From contig OY740809.1 in assembly GCA_963514005.1 (NCBI GenBank), positions 28,830,001-28,894,000 on the forward strand: a stretch of 64,000 nt of DNA. The letters run 5' to 3'. Of this stretch, positions 35,227 to 35,892 are shown one piece after another; positions within the stretch are counted from its first letter, which is position 1, and each line of letters begins with the position of its first letter. The stretch comes from Raja brachyura (lineage: Eukaryota). The position numbers and the translations under genes were made by a program. The notes below the pieces were generated by a model, which was not told the DNA's origin, made no database searches, and saw nothing but the letters and a program-made list of their open reading frames with translations.

Positions 35227-35892
35227 TATCCCGACAGTCCTTTCAGGTTAGGCAGAGGTTCACTTGCGCCTGCTCCAACCTCATCCTCTGTGTCCGTTGT
35301 TCAAGATGTGGACTCTTATACATCGGCGAGACCAAACGCAGACTGGGCGATCGGATCGCGGAACACCTTCGCTCAGCCCGCGTGAACCAACCTGATCTCC
35401 CGGTTGCCGGACACTTTAATTCTCCTTCCCATTCCTACACAGACCTTTCTGTCCTTGGTCTCCTCCATTGTCAGAGTGCGGCTAAACGCAAATTGGGGGA
35501 ACAGCATCTCATATTTCGCTTGGGCAGCTTGCAGCCCAGTGGTATGAATATTGATTGATCTCACTTCAGGTAGCCCCGGCATTCCCCCTCTCTCTATCCC
35601 TCCTCCACCCAAGTCACATTAGCTTCTTATTTTCACCCTACAAACAGCTTACATTGGCCCGTTCCCTTTATCATCATTACCTTTTTGCATCTCTTTCATT
35701 CATTGTTCTTTATCTCTCCACATCACCGTCTATATCTCTCATTTCCCTTATCCCTAACCAGTCTGAAGAAGGGTCTCGACCCGAAACGTCACCCATTCCT
35801 TCTCTCCAGAGATGCTGCCTGTCCCGTTGAATTACTCCAGCTTTTTGTGTCTATCTTCGGTTTAAACCAGCATCTGCAGTTCCTTCTTACAC
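35227..35892 (+). mobile_element. Penelope-like element 3' end: GIY-YIG endonuclease fragment, 3'UTR and hammerhead-bearing terminal repeat
   Basis: FTCACSNLILCVRCSRCGLLYIGETKRRLGDRIAEHLRS..PVAGHFNSPSH..EQHLIFRLGSLQPSGMNID (Neptune-type GIY-YIG); hammerhead core at 35763-35790. Confidence 0.9.

What the first reader, a model, noticed from the sequence alone, without database searches (positions are those of the whole stretch)
35227..35892. Most abundant short repeat is a hammerhead-bearing Penelope terminal repeat, linked here to its GIY-YIG ORF
Seen: directly after a Neptune-type GIY-YIG C-terminus and 3'UTR comes GT-CTGAAGA-A-GGGTCTCGACCC-GAAA-CG-TC-AC (core 35763-35790): CUGANGA, one extra A, helix II, GAAA, palindromic ACGU in place of helix III, and a GUC cleavage triplet. 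The same ~130-bp unit occurs >20 times in the window, with intact-looking cores at about 63, 317, 3945, 13005(-), 48603, 58308(-) and 59182. Known: Penelope-like elements carry minimal type-I hammerheads that cleave as dimers through the palindromic helix III. Inference: this genome carries roughly one such unit per 3 kb, including inside the ythdf2 intron.
Basis: partly seen in the sequence, partly recalled or inferred. Interest (0 to 1): 0.75.

Follow-up and report, generated by a model that had tools for sequence, protein, structure and literature searches.

The report
Million-copy Penelope end carrying hammerhead motif
This short repeat, found about once every 2 kb in sampled parts of this vertebrate genome, is the end piece of a Penelope-like retrotransposon with a known minimal hammerhead-ribozyme motif; the copies decay like neutral DNA, and their sharp ends likely record how the element copies itself rather than a working genome-wide ribozyme.

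Summary
Observation confirmed. The core at 35763-35790 fits the published Penelope minimal-hammerhead consensus, follows the GIY-YIG C-terminus in 25 of 29 other loci, and flanks both ends of an intact 1,191-aa RT-linker-GIY-YIG ORF elsewhere in the genome (Neptune-type motifs). Genome-wide there are 118,167 core matches (control 55); a 600-kb sample gives one unit per 2.3 kb (about 1.2 million). The kind is known (Cervera and de la Pena 2014). Catalysis is untested and doubtful for most copies: helix I is 2 bp, the fold is not favoured, catalytic G12 decays like other CpG guanines, and 5' ends show no peak at the cleavage site. This fits, by inference, reverse transcription started inside an uncleaved RNA at two sites, one per cut DNA strand, running off the RNA's 5' end. 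New member of a known kind, with useful mechanistic statistics.

The parts
35230..35573 (+). 5'-truncated remnant of the Penelope-like ORF: GIY-YIG endonuclease C-terminus with CCHH motif; premature TGA at 35556-58, family stop TAG at 35571-73
   Evidence: 86-92% DNA identity to longer copies with RT and linker
35574..35758 (+). pyrimidine-rich 3' UTR (about 200 bp in this subfamily; about 110 and 255 bp in others)
35759..35765 (+). CAG-T-CTG near-palindrome, initiator-like; the 5' boundary of most solo copies (inferred RNA start)
35761..35792 (+). minimal type-I hammerhead motif: 2-bp helix I, CUGANGA, extra A, helix II, GAAA, ACGU palindrome, GUC triplet; predicted cut between 35790 and 35791
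35759..35856 (+). short form of the unit (ends near +93 counted from C3 = 35763; inferred inner reverse-transcription start)
   Evidence: bimodal 3' ends
35857..35893 (+). about 37-bp optional tail (ends near +130; inferred outer reverse-transcription start)
   Evidence: tail described in PMC11167929, PMC8557442
35227..35232 (+). candidate target-site duplication TATCCC, repeated at 35897-35902 (only 6 bp, weak)
55209..55350 (.). head-to-head pair of unit fragments (one short, one long end) with a 15-bp flanking direct repeat
58220..58419 (.). head-to-head pair (short arm with intact core on -, long arm on +) in the last ythdf2 intron
63..91 (+). solo unit, core match
317..344 (+). solo unit, core match
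3945..3972 (+). solo unit, core match
12980..13007 (-). core match in an inverted arrangement
48603..48630 (+). solo unit, core match
59182..59209 (+). core match, antisense in the ythdf2 intron

Best explanation
The locus is a 5'-truncated copy of a Neptune-type Penelope-like retrotransposon, and the ~135-bp repeat is that element's terminal unit, which carries a minimal hammerhead motif and is likely the signal at which the element's reverse transcriptase starts copying. Shown: linkage to the ORF, presence at both ends of intact elements, two 3' end points about 37 nt apart, a sharp 5' boundary at the first bases of the ribozyme, and head-to-head pairs that are single insertions with one long and one short arm. 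Inferred: the RNA begins at the CAGT just before the core; the protein binds near this end, cuts both target strands and primes cDNA inside the uncleaved RNA at +93 and/or +130; the cDNA runs off the RNA's 5' end after 100-135 nt, giving the huge excess of short solo copies; priming at both sites on one RNA gives the inverted pairs; priming at the 3' unit of a longer RNA gives ORF-bearing, 5'-truncated copies such as this one. The ribozyme is probably kept by selection in the master elements (weak, protein-assisted cleavage or a structural role), while inserted copies decay neutrally.
For: Unit 160-235 bp after the GIY-YIG end in 25 of 29 other loci and downstream in sense in 20 of 20 RT-bearing loci. 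L081: unit - ATG 163 bp after C3 - 1,191-aa ORF with RT, DKG, C-x4-CxxC linker, CCHH GIY-YIG - UTR - unit; 22 of 150 listed matches have open frames of 1,190 aa or more. 3' ends bimodal at about +84..99 and +117..131, as the 30-40-bp tail that equals two RT start sites in PMC11167929. 5' ends: 131 of 302 units start at -8..+3, 14 at +26..+30; only 405 of 9,355 exact -2..+30 copies continue with this subfamily's next 6 upstream letters; target duplications abut the boundary in some solos. Pairs: long+short 45, short+short 12, long+long 1 of 58 classifiable (68 pairs in all; expected 28/20.5/9.5, p=3e-6); 20 of 31 tested have a flanking direct repeat of 7 bp or more against 2 of 196 shuffled. 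G12 G-to-A 24% against 18-26% at non-core CpGs, p=0.37. Subfamily differences keep the pairs (U-A to U-G in helix II and helix I, GUC to GUU).
Against: No RNA-end data: the runs found were contigs only and cannot show a start site. No significant excess of untemplated G (cap copy) at the 5' junction (14 of 32; each class p>0.09). 16 of 21 young ORF-start loci that reach the core run on into an upstream tandem copy instead of stopping at -4..0, so longer or circular templates or template jumps must also exist. [quoted passage not shown] Core A and G positions are slightly better conserved than base-matched controls (96 vs 93%, p=0.005; 95 vs 91%, p=0.04), which may be alignment-end bias or weak selection. 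Clade rests on motifs, not on a tree.
Confidence: 0.72

Rival explanations
2. The solo units are a separate non-autonomous, SINE- or retrozyme-like family with its own short transcripts, mobilised in trans by the Penelope-like protein.
For: Fixed 5' boundary and about tenfold excess over UTR-linked copies (26 of 302 extend beyond -30). Vertebrate retrozymes are proposed to derive from pLTRs (bioRxiv 10.64898/2026.07.22.740005).
Against: Solo and ORF-linked units share the same subfamily variants; the same -4..0 stop occurs at the 5' end of ORF-bearing copies (5 of 21); sampled copies are dispersed singles or inverted pairs, not the tandem arrays that define retrozymes (arrays were not searched for genome-wide).
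Confidence: 0.2
3. Inverted pairs and the sharp 5' edge come from fold-back self-priming at the CAG-T-CTG palindrome (or copying of an antisense template), not from two primings on one sense RNA.
For: 3,214 exact palindromic head-to-head junctions at this motif; self-priming on an antisense template was proposed for rotifer Penelopes (PMC3846280).
Against: Most pair junctions are asymmetric, with arms of different 5' reach and short filler; fold-back alone does not predict one short and one long end; both strands were cut and extended in vitro (PMC11167929).
Confidence: 0.2
4. The 5' boundary is a splice acceptor (pyrimidine tract plus CAG), as at the intron end next to helix I in Drosophila virilis Penelope.
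For: Pyrimidine tract and CAG are kept in all three UTR subfamilies; in D. virilis the intron ends at helix I (PMC4209133).
Against: Solo copies share no upstream exon sequence; the donor-like site at the stop codon is absent from subfamily B; no GT..AG joint ending there among the joints listed (partial list).
Confidence: 0.08

Closest known systems
Minimal type-I hammerheads of metazoan Penelope-like elements (Cervera and de la Pena 2014, PMC4209133)
   Same: U-rich leader, CUGANGA plus one extra base, G10.1-C11.1 pair, GAAA, palindromic C-G, NUH; located in both pLTRs; many dispersed singles. The Acropora Neptune example has the same CGUC arrangement.
   Different: Helix I is 2 bp (at the short end of the published range); count 118,167 against about 4,000 (coelacanth) and 9,000 (Xenopus) with a different descriptor; no cartilaginous fish appears in their table S1 or figure S3.
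Neptune clade of EN+ Penelope-like elements (features from Craig et al. 2021, PMC8557442)
   Same: Single ORF, RT with DKG, CX2-5CxxC linker, C-terminal GIY-YIG with CCHH, partial tandems, inverted 5' copies, 30-40-bp tail.
   Different: Long low-complexity N-terminal half (1,191 aa in all); extreme excess of 100-135-bp solo ends; clade not confirmed by a tree.
PAc, Poseidon element of Anolis (Frangieh et al. 2024, PMC11167929)
   Same: Two end points 30-40 nt apart just downstream of the hammerhead; uncleaved RNA appears to be the template.
   Different: Different clade; in PAc the ORF starts inside the ribozyme, here 163 bp after C3; the one-tail rule of inverted pairs and the stop at the ribozyme's 5' edge are not described in the parts read.
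Non-LTR retrozymes (axolotl, 126,247 hammerheads; PMC7229834)
   Same: Comparable absolute number of type-I hammerhead motifs; dimer-type design.
   Different: Retrozymes are 170-400-nt tandem repeats with canonical motifs and circular RNAs; here the copies are dispersed element ends, about ten times denser (2.7 Gb against 28 Gb).

Membership tests
EN+ Penelope-like element | single ORF with PLE-type RT and C-terminal GIY-YIG | tested here: met
   L081 1,191 aa: RVT_1 E=5e-4, GIY-YIG E=2e-3, both below Pfam cut-offs; RT motifs read directly; 892 homologues at E<=1e-30
EN+ Penelope-like element | pLTR at both ends, partial tandems, inverted 5' copies | tested here: met
EN+ Penelope-like element | optional 30-40-bp tail | tested here: met
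Neptune clade | CX2-5CxxC linker before the endonuclease, and CCHH motif | tested here: met
   C-x4-CxxC in most of the 20 loci and in L081; shared with Nematis, absent from Penelope/Poseidon; the linker itself is lost from the window copy
Neptune clade | RT phylogeny with named Neptune references | not testable with these tools
   no named reference sequences available; homologues are unnamed
PLE minimal type-I hammerhead | CUGANGA-N-helix II-GAAA-palindrome-UH order with a helix I | tested here: met
   helix I only 2 bp
PLE minimal type-I hammerhead | structure-preserving variation | tested here: inconclusive
   subfamily changes are wobble-type and keep the pairs; no two-sided compensatory change among the common pair types
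Hammerhead ribozyme (catalyst) | self-cleavage after H17 | not testable with these tools
   indirect signs negative; no Rfam hammerhead match in 33000-38000
Non-LTR retrozyme | tandem repeats of 2 or more hammerhead-bearing units | tested here: not met
   window and 600-kb sample show singles and head-to-head pairs; genome-wide arrays not searched

The most novel reading that the evidence does not exclude
This genome holds a million-event record of Penelope integration showing that one RNA is primed twice, once at each of two fixed internal sites by the two cut target strands, and that cDNA runs off a capped RNA end placed at the first base of the hammerhead; the ribozyme is then a switch kept off in the dominant template, and this is among the densest hammerhead-motif populations in a vertebrate.
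Probability: 0.4. Interest if true: 0.65.

Novelty: new member of a known kind. Interest (0 to 1): 0.42.

Why it matters
How Penelope-like elements integrate and what their hammerheads do are open questions (PMC8557442 calls the function unclear; PMC11167929 found it dispensable in vitro). A young family with intact ORFs and about a million footprints makes both testable: end statistics constrain the priming mechanism, and strand bias of about 118,000 intact cores in introns would measure whether such ribozymes ever cut host RNA. The unit also makes up roughly 4% of sampled DNA, which matters for repeat annotation. The presence of the motif itself is not new.

Tried and rejected
Rfam scan of 33000-38000 found no hammerhead family. 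Minimum-energy folds do not give the hammerhead; z-scores -0.2 to -1.0 (the fourth fold there was of the wrong strand and was ignored). Raw per-position conservation favours the core (0.95 vs 0.85), but this mostly reflects subfamily differences outside the core, so I replaced it by base-matched and CpG tests. The idea that the 3' UTR is an intron was rejected. A peak of 5' ends at the cleavage site was not found; the +24 control was spoiled by an unrelated repeat. Cap-derived G at 5' junctions: not significant. Sequencing runs were all contigs, mostly of uncertain type; depth peaks over the unit and loose ends fall at -4 and -2, but this cannot show transcription or a start site. The target-duplication test for solo copies stopped part-way with a script error, so no statistic is given for solos. 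Hits that start at +90..99 were dropped by the stricter rule (359 to 302 units). Two look-ups of earlier scan findings returned nothing.

Full report
Observation. The sequence at 35761-35792 reads GT, CUGAAGA, A, a helix II with a short loop, GAAA, CG, UC, AC. The 141-bp unit has 41 blast hits in the window, whereas the upstream ORF and UTR have only one other partial hit. The frame 35169-35558 encodes a GIY-YIG C-terminus. Positions below are counted from C3 = 35763 as 0.

Link to the element. Searching the genome with this peptide gave 116,238 first-look candidates, of which 150 were scored; in 25 of the 29 other loci fetched, the unit lies 160-235 bp after the peptide's end in the same orientation (of the four misses two have it about 600 bp away). 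Walking upstream gave the C-x4-CxxC linker and RT motifs. Among 20 RT-bearing loci all have the unit downstream in sense, and L081 holds an uninterrupted 1,203-codon frame (1,191 aa from ATG) with the unit at both ends, preceded by a 5'-truncated tandem copy and an inverted fragment. 22 of 150 listed N-terminal matches sit in open frames of 1,190 aa or more, many at 96-100% identity, and one four-copy tandem has a 3,965-bp period, so the family is young. The linker and CCHH motif point to Neptune or Nematis and exclude Penelope/Poseidon (PMC8557442, passages); only Neptune and Poseidon were found in vertebrates in a recent survey (bioRxiv 10.64898/2026.07.22.740005, passages). No tree was built. 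The host is a vertebrate with a 2.7-Gb assembly; that it is a cartilaginous fish is my recalled impression and comes from no call.

Abundance. The strict core pattern has 118,167 matches genome-wide against 55 for the reversed control, one per 23 kb. Sixty 10-kb stretches taken at round coordinates on large contigs contain 263 units or unit fragments, one per 2.3 kb, which extrapolates to about 1.2 million; about 4.4% of those bases are covered by the hits. Published counts, with other descriptors, are about 4,000 in coelacanth and 9,000 in Xenopus (PMC4209133) and 126,247 canonical motifs in the 28-Gb axolotl genome (PMC7229834; size). The ythdf2 statement is right: 8 units lie in the 21-kb last intron, 5 with intact cores (2 sense, 3 antisense).

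Is it a working ribozyme? The motif fits the published consensus, and 2-bp helices I occur there too. Differences between subfamilies keep the pairs by wobble, which suggests constraint in master elements but is weak evidence. Against activity of inserted copies: catalytic G12 lies in a CpG and has changed to A in 52 of 214 copies, like non-core CpG guanines (p=0.37); base-matched conservation is equal for C and T and 3-4 points higher for A and G. Nearest-neighbour models put helix II at probability 0.14 in a 38-mer and below 0.01 in longer contexts, and the hammerhead dimer about 15 kcal/mol above the minimum (such models omit tertiary contacts). 5' ends do not accumulate at the cut site: 14 of 302 at +26..+30; genome-wide 429 of 44,159 with a +28 junction pattern, most of those listed being deletions between two ACCC repeats, against 340 at +32. 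In print, minimal motifs cleave weakly even as dimers, and the Anolis one cuts only with protein and is dispensable for insertion.

What the ends show. 3' ends cluster at about +93 and +130, the known tail, which in Anolis equals two RT start sites. 5' ends cluster at -8..+3: 131 of 302 units, 81 of 171 non-inverted ones, and only 26 extend beyond -30. Flanks upstream of the boundary are mostly unrelated to each other, some carry the target duplication next to it, and only 405 of 9,355 exact copies of -2..+30 continue with this subfamily's next six letters (other UTR variants not counted). The boundary sequence resembles an initiator (consensus recalled); D. virilis Penelope has a TATA-less internal promoter (PMC2377424, passages). 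Head-to-head pairs are frequent (131 of 302 units): of 58 classifiable pairs 45 have one long and one short end, 12 two short, 1 two long (p=3e-6 against independence); 20 of 31 long-short pairs tested have flanking direct repeats of 7-17 bp against 2 of 196 controls; 3,214 junctions are perfectly palindromic at the boundary motif. The tail on only one end is noted qualitatively in PMC8557442 and PMC3846280.

Mechanism. Most likely the protein binds the unit near the 5' end of an uncleaved RNA, cuts both target strands and primes at +93, +130 or both; the cDNA runs off the RNA's 5' end, giving solos and pairs, while priming at the 3' unit gives ORF-bearing copies such as this one. The RNA start, the two-priming step and the role of the ribozyme are inferred. 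A complication: of 30 young ORF-start loci, 16 run into an upstream tandem copy, 5 stop at -4..0, 6 stop inside the unit (one at +28) and 3 lack it, so longer or circular templates also operate; ribozyme-made circles, as proposed in PMC4209133, remain possible for this minority.

Literature seen. PMC4209133: main text parts 1-2 of 4 and supplement parts 1-2 of 3. PMC11167929: parts 1-2 of 4. PMC8557442, PMC3846280, PMC2377424, PMC7229834 and bioRxiv 443036: passages. bioRxiv 2026.07.22.740005: part 1 of 5, passages and Discussion; it sampled one chondrichthyan, and its supplements, which I could not see, may cover a related family. Searches showed no paper on this family, on its copy number or on the 5' boundary; subscription journals, Repbase and Dfam were not searchable, and the family may well be catalogued there. 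Penelope-like expansion in shark introns is known.

Verdict. Real feature, known kind, new member; interest 0.42, resting on the density and the end statistics rather than on the motif.

Noticed in passing
L195-L206 (for example G000:C1:82185900-82188200): A separate repeat family of about 2.2 kb (87-93% alike) carries two outward-facing fragments (+24..+68) of the unit, 1.1-1.8 kb apart and without the hammerhead core; about 700 matches of the diagnostic pattern. Possibly a non-autonomous element that captured the fragment.
   Followed up: partly
L209-L214: Head-to-head junctions in which one arm reaches -2 and the other starts at +28, joined through the two helix I bases; about one in eight of the first 100 listed +28 junctions. 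No control for enrichment.
   Followed up: partly
G000:C18:46361415-46373669: Four tandem full-length copies of the element with a 3,965-bp period.
   Followed up: no
window 57284-57307 (-): Last coding exon of ythdf2; the large YTH exon lies about 21 kb upstream, outside the window.
   Followed up: yes
window 35810-35875: A helix (+47..54 with +105..112) and a hairpin (+63..78) are predicted in both subfamilies; the helix needs the tail. Candidate protein-binding structure.
   Followed up: partly
L081:2150-3800: The intact ORF has a long proline-rich, low-complexity N-terminal half with no Pfam match.
   Followed up: no
window 4887-5339, 33011-33400, 37493-38150, 44299-44600, 59050-59493: Open frames that read like 3' fragments of other LINE-type elements (resemblance recalled, not tested).
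   Followed up: no
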